A stretch of DNA of 64,000 bases from IMG/VR virus record IMGVR_UViG_2848581113_000005, positions 18,406-82,405 of that record; one strand, 5' to 3'. Origin of the DNA: a virus. Taxonomy: Duplodnaviria; Caudoviricetes. Of this stretch, positions 2,436 through 44,141 are shown in pieces. The position numbers and the translations under genes are program-made. Positions within the stretch are counted from its first letter, which is position 1. Each line of letters opens with the position of its first letter. The notes below the pieces were generated by a model. It was not told the DNA's origin. It saw only the letters and a list, made by a program, of their open reading frames with translations, and searched no databases.

Positions 2436-2888
2436 TCAAAATTGGCATTCGGCCATACTCCACTCCCTTAGTCCGAGGAATTGGGCTTCGAGGGTTTCTA
2501 GTTCTCCGAGGAGATGTACATAATCCTGTTCAGCGTCTTTCGCCAGTTTGGCGGGTCTTGAACCACCCACGCTGGAGGTGGTAGTGGTTTTAAGCACTGG
2601 ACAGTTGGCTTTGACGTACACGCGCTGAGTATTGGCACGAAGATCATTACTAAGCTGATTAATCTTAGATTTGGCATTGGCGAGTTCCTGAGTGTATTTG
2701 CTATCCAATTCATGCAGCATTTCAATATGTGTGTTCTGGTAGTTAATGGTATCGTTCAGTTGCTGGATTTCTGTTATCTGGCCGTTATTGATGCCAAGCT
2801 GTTTCTTATATCCAGAGCGGTATAAGAAGGCTGCTGCTGAGGCAATCATCAACGCAATAACCGTACCCTTGGTGAAATTGAGCTTCAT
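2436..2888 (-). CDS. Rz-like i-spanin
   Basis: N-terminal TM segment, coiled coil, RVYVKANCP motif; follows the endolysin. Confidence 0.9.
   Translation of the reverse strand: MKLNFTKGTVIALMIASAAAFLYRSGYKKQLGINNGQITEIQQLNDTINYQNTHIEMLHELDSKYTQELANAKSKINQLSNDLRANTQRVYVKANCPVLKTTTTSSVGGSRPAKLAKDAEQDYVHLLGELETLEAQFLGLREWSMAECQF
2498..2677 (-). CDS. Rz1-like o-spanin embedded in Rz
   Basis: Alternative frame within Rz; lipobox ILSAC followed by a Pro-rich region PLPPPAW...PPNW. Confidence 0.8.
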   Translation of the reverse strand: MPNLRLISLVMIFVPILSACTSKPTVQCLKPLPPPAWVVQDPPNWRKTLNRIMYISSEN

Positions 2889-6448: not shown

Positions 6449-6847
6449 TTACGCAACCGCTCTAACCAATTCTTTTCGCACACCTTTATTTATTTCCAAC
6501 GTCACCCCAGAGACCGCCAGAACGCCTTCGATAAACCCTTCCGCTACCTGTACCCGTTTGGTCACTTCGTTATGGGAAATCCCTAACGGGTCACTCATCG
6601 ACCGCAATGCGATCCCTTTAATATAGTGCAGCACAATAAGCTGGAATAAATAAGGATCATGTTGTTTCAATCGCAACACAGCCGCATCTAGCGCCATGCC
6701 GTCATCATCACAACACGGGGAACGCATTCTCCGGTTACGGGGCAGCAATCTCTTAAATCCGGCAGCCACGGAGGGCCAGTCTACCGGGCTTTTGCCCTCA
6801 CAGACCCATGCGCCCCATTGGTTCAGGATCATTCGCATATCACGCAT
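6449..6847 (-). CDS. Late antitermination protein Q
   Basis: MRDMRMILNQWGAW...VAAGFKRLL...CCDDDG...AEGFIEGVL. Confidence 0.9.
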   Translation of the reverse strand: MRDMRMILNQWGAWVCEGKSPVDWPSVAAGFKRLLPRNRRMRSPCCDDDGMALDAAVLRLKQHDPYLFQLIVLHYIKGIALRSMSDPLGISHNEVTKRVQVAEGFIEGVLAVSGVTLEINKGVRKELVRAVA

Positions 6848-6859
6848 TGGTGTCCTCGC

Positions 6860-8755
6860 TTATCCACATTCATTTTCTGTAACATTCTGCCTCTTCCACA
6901 CTTCGTCATACTCAGACACCGGCATATTAGCGATATAGTGATAGGGTTCAGCCTGTTCCTGGTGTAAAAACTGATGGGATTTTTTGTCCAGATAAAGCCC
7001 AATACCGCCCTCCCAGCCATTGCCGTTCCGTTGTTTTTCAATCAGTATCATGGCGGCCGGACCGGCCAGTTTTTCCCGCTCCTTATCCGTTAACATTGCC
7101 CCGGTTTCCTGCTTTTGCAGTACACGTTCACGAGCTTTATTACGCCAGATAATCATCAGGTTGTCTGTCAAGTCGGTAATCGCCCCAGTGCCTTTGACAT
7201 CCATCTTCCCCGTCGGTCTCTCTTCACTGTCACCTTTCCGGCTGTGTGTCACCAAAATCACATGGCTGCGGGTTCTGTTTTTGAAGTCACACAAAGCATC
7301 CACAAAGGCTTTCTGTCCATTGTAATCATCTTCCCCGATACCACATTTCATCAGGCTGTCGATAACAAACAGCTGGATACCATAACGACGCTGCGCATAG
7401 TTAAAGATATCAATCACTCTCGCGGCTTTTGCCGTTCCCGTCAGGCCAAATACCCACAGCCGATCATCGTAAAATTGAAATGCCGAGTCGATTTCTATCA
7501 CAGGTGGTCTTTCTGAGCAGGCCGCCTGCTGGGTCAGGCGCTTAAGCAACTGCCCCGGTTTCAGCTCGAAAGAAGCCACACAAGCGCGTATTCCCTGCCC
7601 CATCGCTTCACACAGCAAATGCCCGACCATTTCACTTTTCCCATGTCCGTTCACACCATTAAGCACCGTGAGTTCTGACTCGCGAAAACTGAAATGAGGG
7701 TTCAACATGTCCCACGGTGTTTTAAACAGACAATGTTCCTGACCGTAGAAAGCATCAATCGTGTCCTGATAAAACTCTCTCGCACTGCACAACTCTTCCG
7801 GATCAAAAAAGATCGCCGTTTCAAGACAACGCACCACGTCATCCTGTGTCATACCCGCCTGTAAGCACGCGTTGATATCCTTGTACGGTAACCTGACTAG
7901 CCGACAGCGATATTCGCCCAATCGGTTGGCAATCTCTTTTGCGGCTTCCCGTCCCACGTCGTCGTTGTCCATTGAGATCCAAATTTCCTCAAAGCGATCA
8001 AGGTTGTGGTATTCAAACTCAATCCACTGCTGCTTGGCGCCCTTACCGCCCCCGAACGGCACAGAAAGGGCCGGCAAACCGTACTGGTGATAACTCATGC
8101 AGTCGATCTCCCCTTCACACAAAATAACTAGCCGGACGTGATTCGGTATCGCCTGCCAGCCAAACAGACAGGGTTCACACTGAGATTCAGCCATAATGAC
8201 TTTCTTGCCATTGGGACGCTCAGTGCTGATGCGCTTGACTTGCAACAACTCCCCGTTTCGTTTGTAAGGAAACGCAATAGCAGGTAATTCTCTGTTTTCA
8301 GCATGAAACCAGACACAGGCATCACCTATCTCAAACGCTTCCGCCGTCTGGCGGGTGATCCCCCGGCTTTCCAGATAGGCATAGCACACGTTGGGTTTAA
8401 AGACATGTTTCGTCAGCCTGTTGCGATCTGGCCGGACAAAGTTTTTTTTCTGCTTCGCGACGAAGTGGTGATCGTCATCCGCAATCCCCAGAAACTGTTT
8501 TGCCTCAGCCATGGCTTGATGCAGACTACAGTCACGCACCTGCACCCATAAATCCAGCAGATCACCACCGGTTCCTTCTGCAAAGTCAGACCAGACTTTC
8601 TTGCCGGACAGATTAATTTTCAGGCTTTTTCCCGCTTCGCCATTGACCGATCCCACTACCCACTCATGCCCTTCCCTACGCCCGTCGGGCAGCAGGTATT
8701 TTGTTACCCGCGCTACGCTACCCCAGAGTTTTTCCGATAGTTCTTTTGGTGTCAT
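6860..8755 (-). CDS. Primase-helicase (TOPRIM plus SF4 helicase, T7 gp4/Twinkle-like)
   Basis: CEGEIDCMS and DNDDVG TOPRIM motifs; GVNGHGKS Walker A; FVIDSL; LVTHSRK. Confidence 0.92.
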   Translation of the reverse strand: MTPKELSEKLWGSVARVTKYLLPDGRREGHEWVVGSVNGEAGKSLKINLSGKKVWSDFAEGTGGDLLDLWVQVRDCSLHQAMAEAKQFLGIADDDHHFVAKQKKNFVRPDRNRLTKHVFKPNVCYAYLESRGITRQTAEAFEIGDACVWFHAENRELPAIAFPYKRNGELLQVKRISTERPNGKKVIMAESQCEPCLFGWQAIPNHVRLVILCEGEIDCMSYHQYGLPALSVPFGGGKGAKQQWIEFEYHNLDRFEEIWISMDNDDVGREAAKEIANRLGEYRCRLVRLPYKDINACLQAGMTQDDVVRCLETAIFFDPEELCSAREFYQDTIDAFYGQEHCLFKTPWDMLNPHFSFRESELTVLNGVNGHGKSEMVGHLLCEAMGQGIRACVASFELKPGQLLKRLTQQAACSERPPVIEIDSAFQFYDDRLWVFGLTGTAKAARVIDIFNYAQRRYGIQLFVIDSLMKCGIGEDDYNGQKAFVDALCDFKNRTRSHVILVTHSRKGDSEERPTGKMDVKGTGAITDLTDNLMIIWRNKARERVLQKQETGAMLTDKEREKLAGPAAMILIEKQRNGNGWEGGIGLYLDKKSHQFLHQEQAEPYHYIANMPVSEYDEVWKRQNVTENECG

Positions 8756-8812
8756 GGTGCTTTTCCCTTTAACTTGCTAAATCCATAGCGAATCGCCAGC
8801 CTGTTATCAACA

Positions 8813-9541
8813 TCATCGTTCGATGTAGTAATAGTTCCCATATTTCTGAATGGGAGAATGATCCGGGCTCTGATTTTGTTGTGGCTCCCGCTGATACGTT
8901 TTCGCGTTACGCAACCAATTGTTCAATGCCCGTCCCCAATCCACAAACTGACTGCCTTTGCTGGCATGATGGTCAGCAAATTTTAAAAATTCTTCCCGCA
9001 GGTTCACGCCCAGTTCATTAGCCAGTGCCTGATGCTGTGCTGTTGGGAGAAAAATGTTTGGCAAGGAGTGTTTGTTTTCCGTTTTTTGTGACGATTTCTC
9101 GCAGACGTCTATAACAGGTTCCTTGACTGGTTCAAAAGAGTGACTGGTTCTGGTGCCATCTGGCGGCATAGGGGGTATATCACCTGACGGCACAGGGGTG
9201 CCAACAGGTGGCATAGGTATGTTTTCTGGCGGCACAGGGGGTATGCTTTTTGGTGGCACAGGGGCAGCCGATAAATTCAGGTAATAGACATTCGAGGCAT
9301 TTCCCTTACCGTTATGGTTACCCAGCCGGTTTTCCTTGATAAGCAGCCCCATCTCAATCAGGGCATCAATGTGACTTCTCACCGCACTCTTACTACATTC
9401 GCAATGATCTGCAATGTGTCGGTATGAAGGCCAGCACTCGCCTTTGTCGTTTGCATTATCCGCTAATTTTATAAGCACCAGTTTTCTCAGGGGGTTTCCT
9501 ACCCTGATACTCATTGCCTTCGCCATCAGACTCATACTCAT
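8813..9541 (-). CDS. Phage replication initiator (N-terminal HTH, C-terminal DnaT-like region)
   Basis: RKLVLIKLADNANDKGECWPSYRHIA HTH; DWGRALNNWLRNA C-terminus. Confidence 0.85.
   Translation of the reverse strand: MSMSLMAKAMSIRVGNPLRKLVLIKLADNANDKGECWPSYRHIADHCECSKSAVRSHIDALIEMGLLIKENRLGNHNGKGNASNVYYLNLSAAPVPPKSIPPVPPENIPMPPVGTPVPSGDIPPMPPDGTRTSHSFEPVKEPVIDVCEKSSQKTENKHSLPNIFLPTAQHQALANELGVNLREEFLKFADHHASKGSQFVDWGRALNNWLRNAKTYQREPQQNQSPDHSPIQKYGNYYYIER
9161..9264. repeat. Five iteron-like repeats (GRYGGCAYAGG) inside rep; probable origin
   Basis: Five copies spaced 21-24 bp apart, about two helical turns. Confidence 0.65.
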
Positions 9542-9633
9542 GCCGTTTCCCCCTTACAGTACGCTAAACAACATCCACATGTTCATATCGGACTCATCCA
9601 AAACGCCATGCATAATCCACCACCGACGGGAAC

Positions 9634-9870
9634 TTATTCATGGGCTTTGACTTCAGGCGTTGGAAAAACTTTAGGCAGATCAGGACGCAGTTCATGAGCC
9701 AAGACTTCCCCGTTCGAAAAAACTACGATATCAGGCACCAACGACACCGAAACCCGTTTTTTTCCGTATAACCATGCGCTGATGAGAGATTGTCTGCACC
9801 CAAGAACCTGAGCCAGCTTTGTTTGACTACCTGCAATTTTTATAACTTTTTGTATCACGCTGTTTTTCAT
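9634..9870 (-). CDS. Cro-like repressor (YdaS family)
   Basis: AGSQTKLAQVLGCRQSLISAW...HELRPDL; GGAGAAGG RBS; divergent from cI. Confidence 0.85.
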   Translation of the reverse strand: MKNSVIQKVIKIAGSQTKLAQVLGCRQSLISAWLYGKKRVSVSLVPDIVVFSNGEVLAHELRPDLPKVFPTPEVKAHE

Positions 9871-9902
9871 TAATGCCTTCTCCAACACTACAGCAATAAT
9901 CT

Positions 9903-9968
9903 TATCACTATAGATCAATGTAAATCACTATTGGTGTATTTGTAAAGGTATCACTTTAGAGATAGAAT
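9903..9968. promoter_or_regulatory. OR-like operators and PRM-like promoter of prophage A
   Basis: Three sites resembling TATCACTWWAGTGATA at 9903, 9923 and 9949; TTGTAA(9940-9945)-17bp-TAGAAT(9963-9968) points toward cI. Confidence 0.7.
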
Positions 9969-10011
9969 GAGAAACAGATGTTCCAAGACAGGAGTGCTTG
10001 GGCTATATCAT

Positions 10012-10225
10012 GTATTTCACGTAAATGCGGGAATAACAATCACGGTTCGCCGGTGTCTTTACCTAAGCTCACAGATTCCCCGTAAGTACGGGGATAACTG
10101 AAATCTGGATGCTGCCGTTGCGGGTATAAGCACAGGTTCCCCGTAAGTACGGGGATAACTCACAGACAGTTAGAAGCCAATAATCCTTTTTAAATAGTTT
10201 CCTCATCGGTACAGAGATTGAACTG
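10012..10225 (+). CRISPR. Cas-less type I-E-like mini-CRISPR array: two near-identical repeats, two degenerate flanking repeats, three spacers
   Basis: AGATTCCCCGTAAGTACGGGGATAACTG (10073-10100) and AGGTTCCCCGTAAGTACGGGGATAACTC (10134-10161); degenerate GTATTTCACGTAAATGCGGGAATAACAA (10012) and AGTTTCCTCATCGGTACAGAGATTGAACTG (10196); period 61/61/62 bp; the TCCCCGT-AAGT-ACGGGGA hairpin matches the I-E layout GTGTTCCCCG...CGGGGATAAACCG. Confidence 0.85.
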
Positions 10226-10283
10226 AAGAGATAAATTGATTTGTTCTCTGTAAATACGAAGGTAAACCACTCATGAGGCACTT

Positions 10284-10895
10284 ATGACTCTTGCTGATAG
10301 ATTGAAAGAAGCCATGGCAGATAAAGGGCTTACCCAATCCGCTCTTGCAGAAAAAGCCGGCATGGCTCAATCCATGATATGGAAATTACTCTCAGGAAAA
10401 GCAGCCAAAACAGGTAAGCTCGTTGATTTGGCAAAGGCGCTTGGCGTACGCCCGGAATGGCTCAGTGATGGCAGCGGTAGTAAATATCAAACGGGTGAGG
10501 CTGATTTTGCTGTCATGCATGACAACCGTTATGTACCTATAAAAATTTATGAGGAAGAACAAGAAACCCATGAATCATTCATGGTTCCTGCCCTTTCTGA
10601 ACTGCAAACCCATTTTGATTCATGCCGGGCTTATCGTATCACCCAGAATACAGGCTGCGCTGAAGCGCCGGAAGGGACTTTAATCATTGTTGATAAAGAT
10701 GAAGAAACTGCCAATGATGATTTAGTCTATGCGCGTATAGGCGATCATTATTCGGTTTATCGTTATAAGCAAGGTGGCTCAGTCAGCTTTTTGTCTGTTG
10801 ACGACACGCGCATACCCTTGATAACCCTTTCACCTGGCATTGACATAATTGGTGTTATTGTTTATTTATTTCGTGACATGAAACGGAGACGATAA
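10284..10895 (+). CDS. CI-like repressor (HTH plus degenerate S24-like domain)
   Basis: LADRLKEAM...LTQSALAEKAGMAQSMIWKL...LAKALGVRPEWL; the C-domain lacks obvious GDSM and xKR catalytic motifs. Confidence 0.88.
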   Translation: MTLADRLKEAMADKGLTQSALAEKAGMAQSMIWKLLSGKAAKTGKLVDLAKALGVRPEWLSDGSGSKYQTGEADFAVMHDNRYVPIKIYEEEQETHESFMVPALSELQTHFDSCRAYRITQNTGCAEAPEGTLIIVDKDEETANDDLVYARIGDHYSVYRYKQGGSVSFLSVDDTRIPLITLSPGIDIIGVIVYLFRDMKRRR

Positions 10896-10983
10896 TTCTC
10901 TCATTCCATATCAACCTTTCACGCATAACCTCCCGGTTTCACTCGAAATACGCCCAAATCTTTCCTCCCTTTACGCCAAGACA

Positions 10984-10999
10984 CTGTTTTTTAACACAG
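10984..10999. promoter_or_regulatory. Putative LexA box
   Basis: CTGTTTTTTAACACAG fits CTGT-N8-ACAG; it sits inside a longer inverted repeat. Confidence 0.5.
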
Positions 11000-11102
11000 C
11001 GTCTTGGGTGTTACTTGACTCATTGCAATTATCAATTCATGAAACAATTTCAATCCTATAAAATTATTTAATATCAATGAGATAATTAAATAAAACCAAT
11101 TT

Positions 11103-11187
11103 TTATCACTATAGGTATGGATTTAACAGAACTTAGGTGATAATGTTAGTCTCATCAAAGTGATAGGAATAATCACCAAAAGATTAA
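11103..11187. promoter_or_regulatory. OL-like operator cluster and PL region of prophage A
   Basis: ATCAC/GTGAT half-sites as at OR: TTATCACTATAGG, TTAGGTGATAA, AAAGTGATA, AATCACCAAAAGATT. Confidence 0.6.
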
Positions 11188-11199
11188 TAGCGAGGATTT

Positions 11200-11619
11200 A
11201 TGAGTACCTTTATTTCTGGCACTACCGAGAAACCGACTACAAAACAAAAAAACGCCATAAGCATTAAATATATTATTGCAAATATCGCACAAGCAGACGT
11301 TTTGCACTCAGGAACAACACAGATCCCCTTTTTGGCAGACCCGCGTTTGAATTCATATAATAAGTACAAACACCGGAATAACTGCATGGATACAAAAAAT
11401 AAAAAGGAATTCAAATATCATATACTGACGACCTATCTGGCCAGCCAAAAACAGACAAAGCCGGCTCCTTGCTATAAATTAGAAACTATCATCGATTACG
11501 GTTATGCGCTCTATAAGCGGAGAGGACGGTATATGTATTTAATTGATATCATCCCTATTATTAAAACAAAAAATAAAACACCATTGGCAATAAAAAACCG
11601 TTACACAACAAACCAATAA
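11200..11619 (+). CDS. Hypothetical protein, first gene of the PL operon
   Basis: GAGGA RBS; position after OL; no recognisable family. Confidence 0.4.
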   Translation: MSTFISGTTEKPTTKQKNAISIKYIIANIAQADVLHSGTTQIPFLADPRLNSYNKYKHRNNCMDTKNKKEFKYHILTTYLASQKQTKPAPCYKLETIIDYGYALYKRRGRYMYLIDIIPIIKTKNKTPLAIKNRYTTNQ

Positions 11620-11951
11620 AATAAAAAATATAATTTTTATAAGTATAGAAACTTAATTACAGTGACTGCACTGGGGAATATTTCGATATAAATTTAGACC
11701 GGTTACACATAAGAAGAGAATATGAAATATATATTATATGAGAACTACAAAGCTGGAATAATTTTTCATACTGATATGATGAACGAGAACCTGATGTGGT
11801 GATCTACAACTAAAGATTAAAAAAACTCAAATGGTATTCCTCAGCACTGGACCGGAATACATCATTTTTGTGTGACGGATGTGAAGGTAACCACTGAAAA
11901 AGTTGTCAGGGTGGCTTTGGCAAGCAATTATCAGAAAGGAAGTAGTAAGTC

Positions 11952-12134
11952 ATGGCAACGAGATACATTAGTCTTAAAGAAATGTGCAAATTGGTAGGGA
12001 AGAGCCATCCTACTTTGTGGCGGATGTGGGCAAAGAGAAACGAATTTCCAAAACCATCAAAGACAGAAAGCGGAATTTTTTTGGGCTGGCCTGAAGAAGT
12101 TTATGAAAAGTGGGTTAAAGAGAAAAATCCTTAA
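11952..12134 (+). CDS. AlpA-family regulator, probable excisionase of prophage A
   Basis: RYISLKEMCKLVGKSHPTLWRMW...FPKP...GWPEEVYEKW; next to the att site. Confidence 0.8.
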   Translation: MATRYISLKEMCKLVGKSHPTLWRMWAKRNEFPKPSKTESGIFLGWPEEVYEKWVKEKNP

Positions 12135-12185
12135 GACACCCATTAGAACACCTGCACTTCCTGCAGTATCTAGAAAAAATTGATA

Positions 12186-12198
12186 AGTTATTGATTTT
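12186..12198 (-). promoter_or_regulatory. IHF-like site next to the att core
   Basis: Minus strand AATCAATAACTTA fits WATCAANNNNTTR. Confidence 0.55.
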
Positions 12199-12200
12199 AA

Positions 12201-12245
12201 TGGTACGCCCTACAGGATTCGAACCTGTGACCTACGGCTTAGAAG
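12201..12245 (-). tRNA. 3' 45 nt of tRNA-Arg(UCU) (argU-like); att core duplication, not a complete tRNA
   Basis: Minus strand CTTCTAAGCCGTAGGTCACAGGTTCGAATCCTGTAGGGCGTACCA: anticodon loop with UCU, T-arm GTTCGAATC, CCA end; 5' half absent. Confidence 0.9.
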
Positions 12246-37039: not shown

Positions 37040-38416
37040 CTACCCCAGCATGTCAGGTTCTTTATTTCGGAGTTGATCTTCGATAGCCTCCGGCAATTCG
37101 TCCTGTGGAACAATGTTGATGCTTTGCAGGTATCGAATGAAATCGACCTTACGCATTTCGCCAGACTGGACAGCAGATAGCAGCGTGGAAATGGCCGCAG
37201 AATCAAGCTGGGCAATGTCATAGACTTTGTTCAACTCAATTGTGGCTCCCCCTGCACCAGCGAATTGAACGCAGAACTGGAGCGCCCGGCTAAATGCTTG
37301 TTCAACATTGCCGGCACATAGCGATAAAATGGAGTTATCCGTCTGCGCCTCGTTTTGTGCCTGTGTAGCTGTTCGTGCCGATGTGCCGCGCTCCACCAGT
37401 TTAGCCCCCAGCATGGCCATCTGCTTTTCCCGGCGCTCAGCTACGGTGATTTGGATATTGCGCTCTTCAGGTTGGGCGAATTTCATATCACCGTTTGGCG
37501 GCAGCAATATTCCATTACGTGACCCCACCGTAAAGCCATCAGAAAAATATTTATCCGCCCATACTTCGGTCAGTCCCGTCAAGGCCACCATCGGCTGCCC
37601 TACTGTATGGGCTGATTCTGCAATATCGGCTTCAGCCTGATAATGTTTGATATTCACATAGGCAATATCCGCCAGTGGTGGTGCATCCGGTGTGTGATCA
37701 TTGTTCATTGAGCCTATCCATGACCACGGCAATTCAAATAATGGCTGACCTGTTGCATCTTTCAGTTCCACCCAGTCATGCGCAATCAAATTGCCGTCCT
37801 GATACCAGTGTCGTGAATATGCCCGCCCCTCAATGAGCCTCAACTCAATCCAGTGATCAATCAGTTGCAAATCAAAGTTATCCGTGTCCTTCGGCTCTTT
37901 ATAATGCACCACCACCAGCGATGTTTTCCCGTTGGTCACCCGCCAGTTAATAATTTCCTTGGCGGTAAATAATCGGATATAGGGGCGTCCTTTTTCAGCC
38001 TCTGATTGAATGCCCGAACCAGAAAAATCACTCAATAAACCTGCTCGCCCGCGCTGTAATACTTGGGATAACGCATCGCGTATCATCTGTGTTAATGGCT
38101 GGCCTTCACCATCAATATCCGTTTCCAGATACTCAATGCCCCCGGAGATATCAATTTTGACGGGTTTATTGAATGCAATACCCAATAACCCACTCAGGGT
38201 GCGCCCCGTCGCGTTGATAAATGACGCCCGGAGCAAATAACGCTCATAGCGCTTATTACTTGCATCATCCTTCTCTTTCTTATCTGCCGGATGGGGCAAG
38301 TACCTTTCTTTCCGGCTCTTAATCACCCGTTCGCCATCAACACAATCGCCGATCATGTTCCATTCTGACAAAAACTCGGTGTAGGCCGGATGTCTGTAAT
38401 CAACGTTTGTGCTCAT
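37040..38416 (-). CDS. Portal protein (DUF4055-type)
   Basis: YERYLLRASFINATGRT, PPLADIAYVNIKHYQ; directly after TerL. Confidence 0.88.
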   Translation of the reverse strand: MSTNVDYRHPAYTEFLSEWNMIGDCVDGERVIKSRKERYLPHPADKKEKDDASNKRYERYLLRASFINATGRTLSGLLGIAFNKPVKIDISGGIEYLETDIDGEGQPLTQMIRDALSQVLQRGRAGLLSDFSGSGIQSEAEKGRPYIRLFTAKEIINWRVTNGKTSLVVVHYKEPKDTDNFDLQLIDHWIELRLIEGRAYSRHWYQDGNLIAHDWVELKDATGQPLFELPWSWIGSMNNDHTPDAPPLADIAYVNIKHYQAEADIAESAHTVGQPMVALTGLTEVWADKYFSDGFTVGSRNGILLPPNGDMKFAQPEERNIQITVAERREKQMAMLGAKLVERGTSARTATQAQNEAQTDNSILSLCAGNVEQAFSRALQFCVQFAGAGGATIELNKVYDIAQLDSAAISTLLSAVQSGEMRKVDFIRYLQSINIVPQDELPEAIEDQLRNKEPDMLG

Positions 38417-43149: not shown

Positions 43150-43612
43150 TACCTCTACATTCAGTCTTCACATAATCCCTCAGTCCAAGGTACTGGGCTT
43201 CGAGGGTTTCCAGTTCTCCGAGGAGACGTACATAATCCTGTTCAGCGTCTTTCTCCAGTCGGGCGGATCCTGAACCATCCATGCCGGGGGAGGAAGCGGT
43301 TTCAGACACTGGACATTCTGCCCTGACATACACGCGCTTAACGTGAGTGCGCAAATCATCGCTAAGCTGAGTGATTTTAGATTTGGCATTCGTTAGTTCC
43401 TGTAAGCGGGTGGTGTCTATTTCTGCAAGGTGTTTGATGCGTTCTTCCTTGCTGGTGATGAGGGCGTTTTTTTGTGATAACTGGGTGTTCAGTGATTGAT
43501 TATCTTTAGTGAGCTGTCCATTCTCTGCATACACCGAGTAGATGAAATGGACCGCTGAACCCATCAGAGCCACAAAAACCATCACCGCGATAGCCTTAAC
43601 TTTCCACTTCAT
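43139..43612 (-). CDS. Rz-like i-spanin
   Basis: TM segment plus coiled coil; homologous to 2436-2888. Confidence 0.9.
   Translation of the reverse strand: MKWKVKAIAVMVFVALMGSAVHFIYSVYAENGQLTKDNQSLNTQLSQKNALITSKEERIKHLAEIDTTRLQELTNAKSKITQLSDDLRTHVKRVYVRAECPVSETASSPGMDGSGSARLEKDAEQDYVRLLGELETLEAQYLGLRDYVKTECRGNDG
43180..43389 (-). CDS. Rz1-like o-spanin
   Basis: Lipobox TLSAC, Pro-rich, nested in Rz. Confidence 0.8.
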   Translation of the reverse strand: MPNLKSLSLAMICALTLSACMSGQNVQCLKPLPPPAWMVQDPPDWRKTLNRIMYVSSENWKPSKPSTLD

Positions 43613-43739: not shown

Positions 43740-44141
43740 TCATAGGAGTTCATATGCCTTTGTAAACACATCATCAGAATAGGGTTGCTGGCCGTTCTCA
43801 TGCTGGATAATGGACTTAGCCAATGCAATCAGGGTTTGCTTGTTAACTTCAATCTTATCGAACGGGTCAACATTGAGCGCCCTGGCAACCCCGTTAATGT
43901 AAGCCGTGGTGTTATTTTCATTGCTGGGCGCATATCGATTGATGATTTTAGAGATACTGTTATGCCCGCCTTTATGGTAATTCAGAAGCAACTTCATCAA
44001 TGCCCGGATACCATATTCAGCAGATTCAAACCGACAGAACCGCTTTTCGATATTCCAGTCATGAGGCAATTGACCCTGCCACTTATTAGCAGGATTGTGA
44101 TCAATGTTGCCGGGATTGTTATTGCGTATGCCTCTGGTCAT
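43740..44141 (-). CDS. Putative endolysin (RGIRNNNPGNI lysozyme-like family)
   Basis: Between holin and Rz; motifs RNNNPGNI, RYAPSNENNT, IIQHENG. Confidence 0.75.
   Translation of the reverse strand: MTRGIRNNNPGNIDHNPANKWQGQLPHDWNIEKRFCRFESAEYGIRALMKLLLNYHKGGHNSISKIINRYAPSNENNTTAYINGVARALNVDPFDKIEVNKQTLIALAKSIIQHENGQQPYSDDVFTKAYELL

What the first reader, a model, noticed from the sequence alone, without database searches (positions are those of the whole stretch)
10012..10225. Prophage-borne, Cas-less type I-E-like mini-CRISPR array inside the cro-cI immunity region
Seen: four repeats at 10012, 10073, 10134 and 10196 (period 61, 61, 62 bp). The two central copies differ at 2 of 28 positions and have a perfect 7-bp stem, TCCCCGT-AAGT-ACGGGGA. 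Spacers are TCACGGTTCGCCGGTGTCTTTACCTAAGCTCAC, AAATCTGGATGCTGCCGTTGCGGGTATAAGCAC and ACAGACAGTTAGAAGCCAATAATCCTTTTTAAAT. No cas gene is present in the window. Known: a 61-bp period and a TTCCCCG..CGGGGATAA layout mark type I-E arrays cut by Cas6e, and phages can carry mini-arrays that borrow host Cascade. Inference: the prophage programs host Cascade against competing elements, or silences host genes by partial pairing. I found no protospacer in this window by eye.
Basis: partly seen in the sequence, partly recalled or inferred. Interest (0 to 1): 0.9.

Follow-up and report, generated by a model that had tools for sequence, protein, structure and literature searches.

The report
Prophage mini-CRISPR carrying a flagellar-gene spacer
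A Xenorhabdus prophage carries a small, partly decayed type I-E CRISPR array between its repressor promoter and repressor gene, and its one intact spacer is a piece of the host flagellar gene flgF, so it is a real but probably non-cutting guide unit of a kind already known from X. nematophila.

Summary
Two near-identical repeats (10073-10101, 10134-10162) match the native Xenorhabdus I-E repeat at 22/29 and 24/29.

The array is a roughly 231-bp insert between a conserved promoter-like site (9940-9968) and the cI start. Seven related species have the same immunity region without it, and two have a one-repeat form.

The central spacer is exactly 33 nt of flgF, taken beside an AAG PAM and inserted with canonical I-E geometry on the opposite strand. 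The resulting crRNA would be antisense to flgF, with TGA in the PAM slot and an off-consensus 5' handle.

Spacers 1 and 3 have no source in phage, plasmid or Xenorhabdus data.

The only named genome with an identical copy (X. szentirmaii DSM 16338) has no Cas6e, Cas7e or Cas1. The window's own host genome is not held.

A 99%-identical copy sits in G025, which has I-E cas genes. It is probably the published nilD locus, but I could not read that paper.

The anti-competitor reading is not supported. Decoy (Racr-like) and flgF-silencing readings remain open. The scan's other notes cover only this same stretch.

The parts
9634..9918 (-). cro-like HTH gene (94 aa), divergent from cI
   Evidence: PHROG 35 'transcriptional repressor' E 3e-19. 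Pfam YdaS_toxin 53.9 bits; Cro 22.7 bits, below its cut-off.
9900..9966 (.). Three ATCACT-containing operator-like sites between the divergent promoters
   Evidence: Read directly. Conserved in the aligned immunity regions. Their function as operators is inferred only.
9940..9968 (+). Promoter-like site TTGTAA-17-TAGAAT pointing through the array into cI (PRM-like)
   Evidence: Promoter scan. The stretch is nearly invariant in the 11 aligned loci. RNA-library contigs of two studies begin at 9986 and 10009, with none at 9932-9985. This is a weak hint only.
10012..10040 (+). R0, a degenerate repeat-like hairpin (19/29 to the native repeat)
   Evidence: Bases 10012-10033 are also present in the 7 array-less relatives.
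10041..10072 (+). Spacer 1 (32 nt), source unknown
   Evidence: No match other than in copies of the array.
10073..10101 (+). R1, an intact repeat (22/29 to native). The 16-nt hairpin core is identical; the handle part reads ATAACTGA.
10099..10131 (+). 33-nt block derived from flgF. It is antisense to flgF on the + strand. In the crRNA register the spacer is 10102-10133.
   Evidence: 32/33 to flgF of G011, G013 and G030; 31/33 to G025; 30/33 to G001. The ORF carrying it has Pfam Flg_bb_rod, D1 and Flg_bbr_C and is annotated FlgF in a Klebsiella record. AAG precedes the block on the flgF sense strand.
10134..10162 (+). R2, an intact repeat (24/29 to native). The handle part reads ATAACTCA.
10163..10195 (+). 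Spacer 3 (33 nt), source unknown
   Evidence: No match other than in copies of the array.
10196..10224 (+). R3, a very degenerate repeat (16/29), supported mainly by its 62-nt spacing
   Evidence: 44 positions of the window score exactly 16/29 and 63 score 16/29 or more, so the match is weak.
10241..10269 (+). R4, the terminal degenerate repeat (21/29). It keeps the native TAAACC end.
   Evidence: It is the right-hand edge of the insert relative to array-less relatives.
10284..10895 (+). cI-like repressor (203 aa), downstream of the array on the same strand
   Evidence: PHROG 4 E 4e-32. Pfam HTH_3 40.6 bits and Peptidase_S24 26.7 bits. RNA-library contigs bridge the array and cI.

Best explanation
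This is a genuine, partly decayed type I-E CRISPR mini-array that rides in the 5' leader of the cI repressor gene of a lambdoid Xenorhabdus prophage.

How it arose (inferred):
- A phage-borne repeat unit flanked by older, decayed units sat between the cI promoter and the cI start.
- In some Cas-positive Xenorhabdus host, the I-E adaptation machinery inserted one new spacer at that repeat and duplicated it.
- The spacer is 33 nt of the chromosomal flagellar rod gene flgF, taken next to an AAG PAM.
- The insertion has exact I-E geometry, but on the strand opposite to the repeat's own direction.

How it works (inferred):
- The array is transcribed with cI from the PRM-like promoter in lysogens.
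- Where the host supplies Cas6e, the two intact hairpins should be cut.
- This would release one crRNA-like RNA with a non-native 5' handle (AUAACUGA). Its guide is antisense to flgF and its target has TGA, not AAG, in the PAM slot.
- It should therefore not trigger cleavage. That would explain why a self-matching spacer is tolerated.

In carriers without cas genes, such as X. szentirmaii DSM 16338, it is an inert passenger in the cI leader. It is most likely the same locus as nilD of X. nematophila.
For: SHOWN

Repeat identity and period:
- R1 and R2 share the 22-23-nt core with 44 native repeats of G025, and the period is 61 nt.

Insertion polymorphism (alignment A1 of 11 loci):
- 2 loci have the full array: the window and G025.
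- 2 loci have R0-S1-one repeat-S3 without the flgF unit: G011 and G027. IMG/VR locus L044 has the same form.
- 7 loci have the promoter joined directly to cI.

The flgF block:
- It is exactly 33 nt. The bases on both sides mismatch flgF.
- The window copy and the G025 copy each differ from flgF at a different single base. The ancestral spacer was therefore 33/33 to the flgF allele of G011, G013 and G030.

Insertion geometry:
- On the flgF sense strand the block is G plus 32 nt preceded by AA.
- 5 nt lie between the R1 core and the block, and 7 nt between the block and the R2 core.
- That is the mirror image of the native layout, where 7 nt precede a PAM-derived G plus 32 nt, followed by 5 nt.

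Local PAM:
- Four protospacers of native Xenorhabdus spacers found in this window are preceded by AAG, AAG, TAG and CAG.

Transcription:
- A promoter-like site lies at 9940-9968.
- RNA-library contigs of two studies run 9986-10675 and 10009-10982.

Cas content (36 Xenorhabdus species genomes searched per family):
- G001 and G027 lack Cas6e and Cas7e, both of which are found in 21 of 36 genomes.
- Cas1 and a Cas6e protein query were searched in 4 genomes and found in 2, G011 and G025.
- G001 has no native repeat cluster.

INFERRED
- Cas1-Cas2 authorship of the insertion, processing by Cas6e, and lack of interference.
Against: - The window's own host genome is not held. G001 shares only 5,510 identical bases (window 6736-12245) and lacks the second prophage to the right of 12245. 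The cas status of the true host is therefore untested.
- The array and the cI 5' part are 97-100% identical between the window and G025, whereas the flanks are 80-95% identical. This could mean selection rather than recent exchange.
- Both hairpin cores are intact, which a purely neutral relic need not keep.
- From memory, NilD RNA has a colonisation phenotype in X. nematophila. That argues for some function in Cas-positive hosts.
- RNA contigs cannot show starts, strand or processing.
- Spacers 1 and 3 are unexplained.
- The direction of the insertion polymorphism (gain or loss) is not settled. The array-less sites keep a repeat-like hairpin, joined at an AA microhomology.
Confidence: 0.6

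Rival explanations
1. RNA anti-CRISPR decoy (Racr-like). The phage-borne repeats keep the Cas6e hairpin but carry a wrong 5' handle. In lysogens they would soak up Cas6e and Cas7 into dead-end complexes. This would protect the prophage, or incoming kin, from host I-E immunity. The flgF spacer would be an accidental later acquisition.
For: - The one-repeat forms in G011, G027 and L044 are solitary repeat units downstream of a promoter, without cas genes. That is the published description of SRUs (PMC10651486, passages read).
- The handle part differs from the native ATAAACCG at 3-4 of 8 positions in every copy, while the core is intact.
- Native Xenorhabdus spacers do target prophages in this window, so there is pressure to counter I-E. 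Three of 61 native spacers sampled from G025, G011 and G022 hit the window. One hits the spanin gene of this prophage at 31/32.
Against: - 2 of the 4 species genomes that carry the element have no cas genes.
- The repeat in G011's prophage does not follow G011's own native repeat: the loop is TAAGGG against TGAGTA, and the G027 copy has a stem mismatch. It looks like drift, not maintained mimicry.
- The window form is not solitary.
- No acr or aca gene was looked for.
Confidence: 0.2
2. A lysogeny-expressed guide that silences flgF. The processed crRNA would load Cascade, which binds flgF without cleavage (a CRISPRi-like road-block), or it would pair with flgF mRNA. Either route lowers flagellar rod synthesis. 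This could underlie the recalled NilD colonisation phenotype.
For: - In the crRNA register, 29-30 consecutive guide positions match flgF.
- The guide pairs with the coding (non-template) strand and is antisense to the mRNA.
- The non-AAG PAM slot fits binding without licensed cleavage.
- The element is expressed from the repressor promoter.
- From memory, the NilD paper's abstract proposes regulation of an endogenous gene.
Against: - In both full-array carriers, the host's own flgF mismatches guide position 1: T against A in G025 and G001. G001 has further mismatches, 30/33 overall.
- The three PAM-slot bases equal the handle's last three bases, so the target looks like 'self'.
- The handle is non-native.
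- G001 has no Cascade at all.
- The spacer has picked up a different substitution in each copy, which is no sign of constraint.
Confidence: 0.15
3. A mini-array that arms host Cascade against competing phages or plasmids.
For: Virus-borne mini-arrays used in inter-virus conflict are a known kind (cited in PMC10651486, passage read). The array sits in a lysogeny-expressed position.
Against: - Spacers 1 and 3 have no protospacer in the phage, plasmid, IMG/VR or Xenorhabdus searches.
- Spacer 2 is chromosomal.
- Spacers 1 and 3 are flanked by decayed repeats that cannot both be cut.
- There is no spacer turnover among the four carriers.
Confidence: 0.04
4. Not CRISPR-related in function. The hairpins would be protein-binding operators or a structural or attenuator element of the cI leader.
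For: A repeat-like imperfect hairpin (R0) is conserved in all 11 aligned cI leaders, including those without the array.
Against: - The intact repeats are absent from 7 of the 11 related immunity regions, which keep the promoter, the operator-like sites and cI.
- The core is identical to native CRISPR repeats.
- The spacer shows an I-E acquisition signature.
Confidence: 0.01

Closest known systems
nilD / NilD CRISPR RNA of Xenorhabdus nematophila (Veesenmeyer et al. 2014, Mol Microbiol 93:1026). I saw only the title, in reference lists; the content is recalled.
   Same: - G025 holds a 99%-identical copy of window 9930-10290. Its chromosome length of 4,432,590 bp equals the length printed for X. 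nematophila ATCC 19061 in PMC3220699.
- That copy is the only locus in G025 with two intact repeats around one spacer.
- G025 has an I-E cas operon.
- This fits my recollection of a free-standing, single-spacer, Cas6e-dependent crRNA.
   Different: - The identity is not proven. The paper is not held.
[quoted passage not shown]
- I cannot tell whether the paper reports the prophage cI-leader position, the flgF origin of the spacer, or the reverse-polarity geometry.
- The window copy sits in a prophage that still has cro. The G025 copy has lost cro.
Racr / solitary repeat units on phages (Camara-Wilpert et al. 2023, PMC10651486; abstract and passages read)
   Same: A phage-borne repeat mimic, downstream of a promoter, without cas genes, of the same subtype as systems in the host genus. 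The hairpin is kept and the flank differs.
   Different: - Here there are two repeats with a real acquired spacer.
- Half of the carrier genomes lack cas genes.
- There is no evidence of inhibition.
- The paper's Supplementary Data 1 (its SRU list) could not be opened and may already list this element.
Viral Cracr arrays / crRNA-like regulators (bioRxiv 10.1101/2024.10.29.618823; abstract and sections 7 and 8 read)
   Same: Prophage-borne I-E array-like units with degenerate repeats, matured by host Cas proteins. That paper describes multi-spacer arrays.
   Different: - Cracr spacers match cas promoters or CreR targets over at least 9 PAM-proximal bases.
- Spacers 1-3 show no such match to the G025 array and cas regions (L039 plus L045) above shuffled controls.
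- Only that one cas locus was tested.
- The paper's Table S2 could not be opened.
Ectopic (off-target) spacer integration that creates new arrays, and flipped spacers in E. coli I-E adaptation (recalled; no paper read)
   Same: A 33-nt insert next to an AAG PAM, with a 28-nt repeat duplication, at a site outside a normal leader-repeat junction.
   Different: The site here is a true repeat copy on a prophage rather than a pseudo-repeat. The polarity is reversed with exact ruler distances.

Membership tests
Type I-E CRISPR array | Repeat of about 29 nt with the lineage's I-E hairpin | tested here: met
   R1 scores 22/29 and R2 24/29 to the native G025 repeat, and the 16-nt hairpin core is identical. 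The hairpins form in the fold.
Type I-E CRISPR array | 61-nt period (repeat plus 32-33-nt spacer) | tested here: met
   Spacing is 61, 61 and 62 nt. The last interval is 45 nt, so the distal end is decayed.
Type I-E CRISPR array | Spacers acquired from other DNA next to the subtype's PAM | tested here: inconclusive
   Spacer 2: yes. It is 33 nt of flgF beside AAG, but in reverse polarity. Spacers 1 and 3: no source found.
Type I-E CRISPR array | Native 5'-handle sequence at the 3' end of the repeat (ATAAACCG in this genus) | tested here: not met
   The handle reads ATAACTGA in R1 and ATAACTCA in R2, against ATAAACCG in the consensus of the 45 array repeats read.
Type I-E CRISPR array | Native AT-rich leader upstream | tested here: not met
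   Local alignment to the two G025 leaders scores within the range of shuffled controls. The upstream element is the cI promoter.
Type I-E CRISPR array | Cognate cas genes in the same genome | tested here: inconclusive
   None in G001, which holds an identical copy. Present in G025 and G011. The window's own host genome is not held.
Type I-E CRISPR array | Cas6e-dependent processing into crRNA | not testable with these tools
   Only assembled contigs of RNA libraries were available.
nilD locus (NilD crRNA) | Sequence identity with the published nilD region of X. nematophila | not testable with these tools
   The paper is not held. Elimination leaves two candidate loci in G025. This is the only one with two intact repeats.
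Racr (RNA anti-CRISPR, solitary repeat unit) | Solitary repeat on a mobile element, behind a promoter, not next to cas genes or other repeats | tested here: inconclusive
   Met by the one-repeat forms in G011, G027 and L044. The window form has two intact repeats plus decayed ones.
Racr (RNA anti-CRISPR, solitary repeat unit) | Inhibits the cognate CRISPR-Cas system | not testable with these tools
   This needs interference assays.
Cracr array (viral crRNA-like regulator) | Spacer-like part matches a cas promoter or CreR target over at least 9 PAM-proximal bases | tested here: not met
   The best seed matches to the G025 array and cas regions (L039 plus L045) are no better than shuffled spacers: 9-10 of 12 scored positions against 10-11. 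Only one cas locus was tested.
Lambdoid operator sites | Present in all phages of the same immunity type, next to the divergent promoters | tested here: not met
   R1 and R2 are absent from 7 of 11 aligned immunity regions that keep the promoter and the ATCACT sites.

The most novel reading that the evidence does not exclude
The prophage expresses, from its repressor promoter, a guide RNA that recruits host Cascade to the flagellar rod gene flgF without cutting, or that pairs with flgF mRNA. Lysogeny would then turn down flagellum assembly. This would be a phage-encoded, nuclease-free CRISPR interference on a host motility gene. It would give the long-sought target of the NilD crRNA that affects nematode colonisation.
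Probability: 0.12. Interest if true: 0.85.

Novelty: new member of a known kind. Interest (0 to 1): 0.5.

Why it matters
Phage-borne repeat units and mini-arrays are a known kind, and the X. nematophila copy of this locus is probably the published nilD.

Three things may be new:
- The locus now has an anatomy. It is an insert in the cI leader of a lambdoid prophage, so its expression is tied to lysogeny.
- Its only intact spacer is a piece of flgF. The molecular signature (33 nt, AAG, 28-nt duplication, mirror-image ruler distances) shows a host adaptation complex acting on a phage-borne repeat in reverse polarity.
- The element persists in hosts that have no cas genes.

If the NilD paper did not report the flgF match, this gives a directly testable target for a crRNA whose mode of action was left open. 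It is also a natural example of how a self-derived spacer can be tolerated: a wrong PAM side and a wrong handle.

Tried and rejected
Searches that found nothing:
- Rfam scan of 9000-11500 at E up to 10 gave only three chance snoRNA-type hits.
- The phage collection with 9600-10900 gave no match.
- The phage and plasmid collections with 10034-10200 at E up to 10 gave only chance hits, plus flgF hits for spacer 2.
- Exact 20-mers of spacers 1 and 3 in IMG/VR hit only the array copy L003.
- A family-level sample of 401 genomes, queried with 10163-10264, matched only G001 plus two 22-nt chance hits. The element was not found in those searched.

Cracr reading: no seed match of any spacer to the G025 array and cas regions (L039 plus L045) above shuffles.

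Native-leader similarity: none above shuffles.

Covariation of the phage repeat with the host's native repeat: not seen in G011.

ARAGORN found no tRNA in the window, although a tRNA 3' fragment is readable at about 12200-12245.

My first native-repeat pattern had one N too many and found nothing for that reason. One search replaced it.

RNA data:
- The long contigs of runs X1 and X2 cover everything at flat depth, so they say nothing about transcription.
- The parts without cover in X5 and X9 (9932-9985) are only a weak hint.

Rows dropped:
- L030 (G015) was left out of alignment A1 because only parts matched.
- G010, G014 and G017 had short promoter-side hits and were not fetched.
- One search listed about 150 rows; 662 rows were not shown. 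The flgF site count (28 of 36 genomes) is from the listed rows only.

Literature:
- Searches for NilD details found the title only in reference lists, plus one sentence in PMC12045306.
- No held paper links flgF, CRISPR and Xenorhabdus. The NilD paper itself is outside the library.
- Supplementary files were not opened.
Full report
**1. What is there**

The stretch 10009-10270 lies between a cro-like gene (9634-9918, minus strand) and a cI-like repressor gene (10284-10895, plus strand). Both belong to a lambdoid prophage. Its neighbours to the left are an O-like initiator, a primase/helicase, a Q-like antiterminator, a DNA methyltransferase, an endolysin and an Rz-like spanin.

The repeat finder reports three copies at 10009, 10070 and 10131, spaced 61 nt. 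The two central ones are 97% alike. The 23-nt core with up to 3 mismatches occurs twice in the window, against 0 in 100 shuffles.

Measured against the native 29-nt repeat of a Xenorhabdus I-E array, the units score as follows:

| Unit | Start | Score |
|---|---|---|
| R0 | 10012 | 19/29 |
| R1 | 10073 | 22/29 |
| R2 | 10134 | 24/29 |
| R3 | 10196 | 16/29 |
| R4 | 10241 | 21/29 |

- The four best plus-strand scores in the whole window are all here.
- R3 alone is at chance level: 44 positions of the window score exactly 16/29 and 63 score 16/29 or more.
It keeps the native TAAACC end.
- Both intact hairpins form in the minimum-energy fold of the leader.

**2. Whose repeat is it**

- The exact repeat with its own 3' flank occurs only in two other places. 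One is X. szentirmaii DSM 16338 (L004, named by the tool). The other is an IMG/VR provirus (L003).
- In 36 Xenorhabdus species genomes, 21 have Cas7e and the same 21 have Cas6e.
- G025 has two arrays, of 24 and 20 repeats, with consensus GTGTTCCCCGTAAGTACGGGGATAAACCG. G022 has the same repeat. G011 has a one-base variant.
- The mini-array repeats share the central 22-23 nt with this native repeat. They differ in the first two bases and in the last four to five: ATAACTGA or ATAACTCA against ATAAACCG.
- So the Cas6e hairpin is native, but what would become the crRNA's 5' handle is not.

**3. It is an insert in the cI leader**

I aligned the window with ten related immunity regions (alignment A1).

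- All eleven share the ATCACT sites and a nearly invariant TTGTAA-17-TAGAAT promoter-like site (9940-9968) that points toward cI.
- Seven genomes (G009, G013, G029, G028, G016, G006, G008) join ...GCGGGAA directly to CCACTCATGAGG..., the ribosome-site region of cI. The window has about 231 extra bases there (about 10034-10264; the edge is ambiguous by an AA microhomology).
- Two genomes (G011, G027), and IMG/VR locus L044, have R0-S1-one repeat-S3-R3-R4 without the middle unit.
- The window and G025 have the full form.

Whether the array-less form is ancestral or a deletion is not settled. The array-less sites still hold an R0-like imperfect hairpin.

RNA-library contigs from two studies run 9986-10675 (run X5, no differences) and 10009-10982 (run X9, 57 differences). 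They bridge the array and cI, and nothing lies on 9932-9985. This fits a start just downstream of the -10 element, but contigs cannot prove a start, a strand or a single transcript.

**4. The central spacer is a piece of flgF**

A genus-wide search with 9930-10290 hit one chromosomal site per genome with the spacer-2 part. Among the listed rows this was 28 of 36 genomes, at 83-97% identity; 662 rows were unlisted.

I fetched five of these sites:

| Genome | Match to spacer block |
|---|---|
| G011, G013, G030 | 32/33 |
| G025 | 31/33 |
| G001 | 30/33 |

- The site lies in a 251-aa ORF with Pfam Flg_bb_rod, FlgE/F/G D1 and Flg_bbr_C.
- The same 32 nt hit genes annotated FlgF in Klebsiella and E. 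coli records.
- The homology is exactly 33 nt (10099-10131), and the bases on both sides mismatch.
- The window copy and the G025 copy each carry one different substitution. The original spacer therefore equalled the flgF allele of G011, G013 and G030.
- On the plus strand the block is antisense to flgF.

**5. Signature of the acquisition**

- On the flgF sense strand the block reads G plus 32 nt and is preceded by AA, which makes an AAG PAM whose G is kept.
- In the native arrays, 7 nt follow the hairpin core, then comes a mostly-G base plus 32 nt, then 5 nt precede the next core.
- In the mini-array, 5 nt (ATAAC) lie between the R1 core and the block, and 7 nt (ACAGGTT) lie between the block and the R2 core. 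This is the exact mirror image.
- The duplicated unit is 28 nt.

I read this as one I-E adaptation event at a solitary phage-borne repeat, carried out in the polarity opposite to the repeat's own direction.

That AAG is the local PAM is shown independently. Of 61 native spacers sampled from G025, G011 and G022, three hit the window at four sites. These sites are flanked by AAG, AAG, TAG and CAG.

**6. Consequences for function**

Transcribed from the cI promoter, the repeats are in the native sense. Cas6e, where present, should cut after each hairpin.

- The product would carry the handle AUAACUGA and a 32-nt guide (10102-10133).
- Guide positions 1-30 derive from flgF.
- The three bases in the PAM slot of the flgF target are TGA, the same as the handle's last three bases.
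- In both full-array carriers, the host's own flgF also mismatches guide position 1.

I therefore expect no licensed interference. This would explain tolerance of a self-derived spacer. It is inference: handle tolerance and PAM range of the Xenorhabdus Cascade were not tested.

**7. Cas content of carriers**

- G001 (X. szentirmaii DSM 16338) is 100% identical to window 6736-12245.
- G001 has no Cas6e (family and protein queries), no Cas7e, no Cas1 and no native repeat cluster.
- G027 also lacks these proteins. G011 and G025 have them.
- G001 is not the window's genome. At 12245 G001 continues into a complete tRNA and host DNA, whereas the window continues into a second prophage that G001 lacks (best match 73%).
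- The window's own host is not held, so its cas status is unknown.

**8. Link to nilD**

- G025 holds a 99%-identical copy.
- Its chromosome length of 4,432,590 bp is the figure printed for X. nematophila ATCC 19061 (PMC3220699).
- There the prophage has lost window 9225-9929, which covers cro and the start of the O-like gene.
- It is the only locus in G025 with two intact repeats around one spacer.
- From memory, NilD is a free-standing, single-spacer, Cas6e-dependent crRNA that conditionally affects nematode colonisation.
- I could not read that paper. [quoted passage not shown]
- I put the identity at roughly two in three.

**9. Rivals**

- Decoy (Racr-like). It fits the one-repeat forms, the intact hairpin with a wrong handle, and the fact that native spacers target these prophages. 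Half of the carriers have no cas genes, and the G011 and G027 copies look drifted rather than matched to their hosts.
- Cas-promoter targeting (Cracr). It is not supported for the one cas locus tested.
- Anti-competitor use. It has no protospacer support.
- Operator function. It is contradicted by the array-less relatives.
- flgF silencing. It stays open as the boldest reading.

**10. Verdict**

It is best filed as a new member of the known kind 'mobile-element-borne I-E mini-array or solitary repeat', probably orthologous to nilD. It carries an informative acquisition scar and a concrete candidate target.

The scan's other notes (e1-6204025, e1-6204032, e1-6204033) concern this same stretch, not other DNA.

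Noticed in passing
window 9152-9262: Five direct repeats of 21 nt, spaced 21-24 nt, lie inside the O-like replication initiator gene (8813-9541). They look like origin iterons (family D1).
   Followed up: no
window 12200-12245; L004 5465-5560: A tRNA 3' fragment marks the right end of this prophage. In X. szentirmaii DSM 16338 the sequence runs on into the complete tRNA and host DNA. In the window a second prophage (tail genes from 12426) follows in tandem and is absent from that genome. ARAGORN called no tRNA in the window.
   Followed up: partly
window 2502-2533, 43214-43245, 44011-44042, 37194-37224: Native I-E spacers of other Xenorhabdus genomes match both prophages in the window. A G011 spacer hits at 32/32 and 31/32 (the second in the spanin gene). 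Another G011 spacer hits at 30/32, and a G025 spacer at 29/31. The flanks are CAG, TAG, AAG and AAG.
   Followed up: partly
G025:C1:3579479, 3590311 and 881906 (L045, L046): G025 has extra lone repeat units. One lies between an array and cas3. One degenerate unit lies after the cas1-cas2 end. One repeat-spacer-degenerate-repeat remnant sits beside IS66-type genes. These may be regulator-type mini-arrays or remnants.
   Followed up: partly
L003 about 1740-1760; L040 about 10345-10356 (G025 copy): The G025 copy of the prophage lacks window 9225-9929 (cro, its promoter side and the start of the O-like gene). It is a cro-less remnant that keeps the cI promoter, the array and cI.
   Followed up: yes
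window 10284-10895: The cI-like protein matches Peptidase_S24 only weakly (26.7 bits, profile 30-116 of 116). I did not check the residues.
   Followed up: no
alignment A1 columns 165-185 (G013, G029): Two array-less relatives carry a tandem duplication of about 11 nt (…TTATGAGGCA…) just upstream of the cI start.
   Followed up: no
window 10089 in RNA run X9: The RNA-library contig of run X9 carries the G025-type substitutions. It also has a C-to-T change at the base of the R1 hairpin, which turns a G-C pair into G-U. This is a variant of the array in another strain.
   Followed up: no
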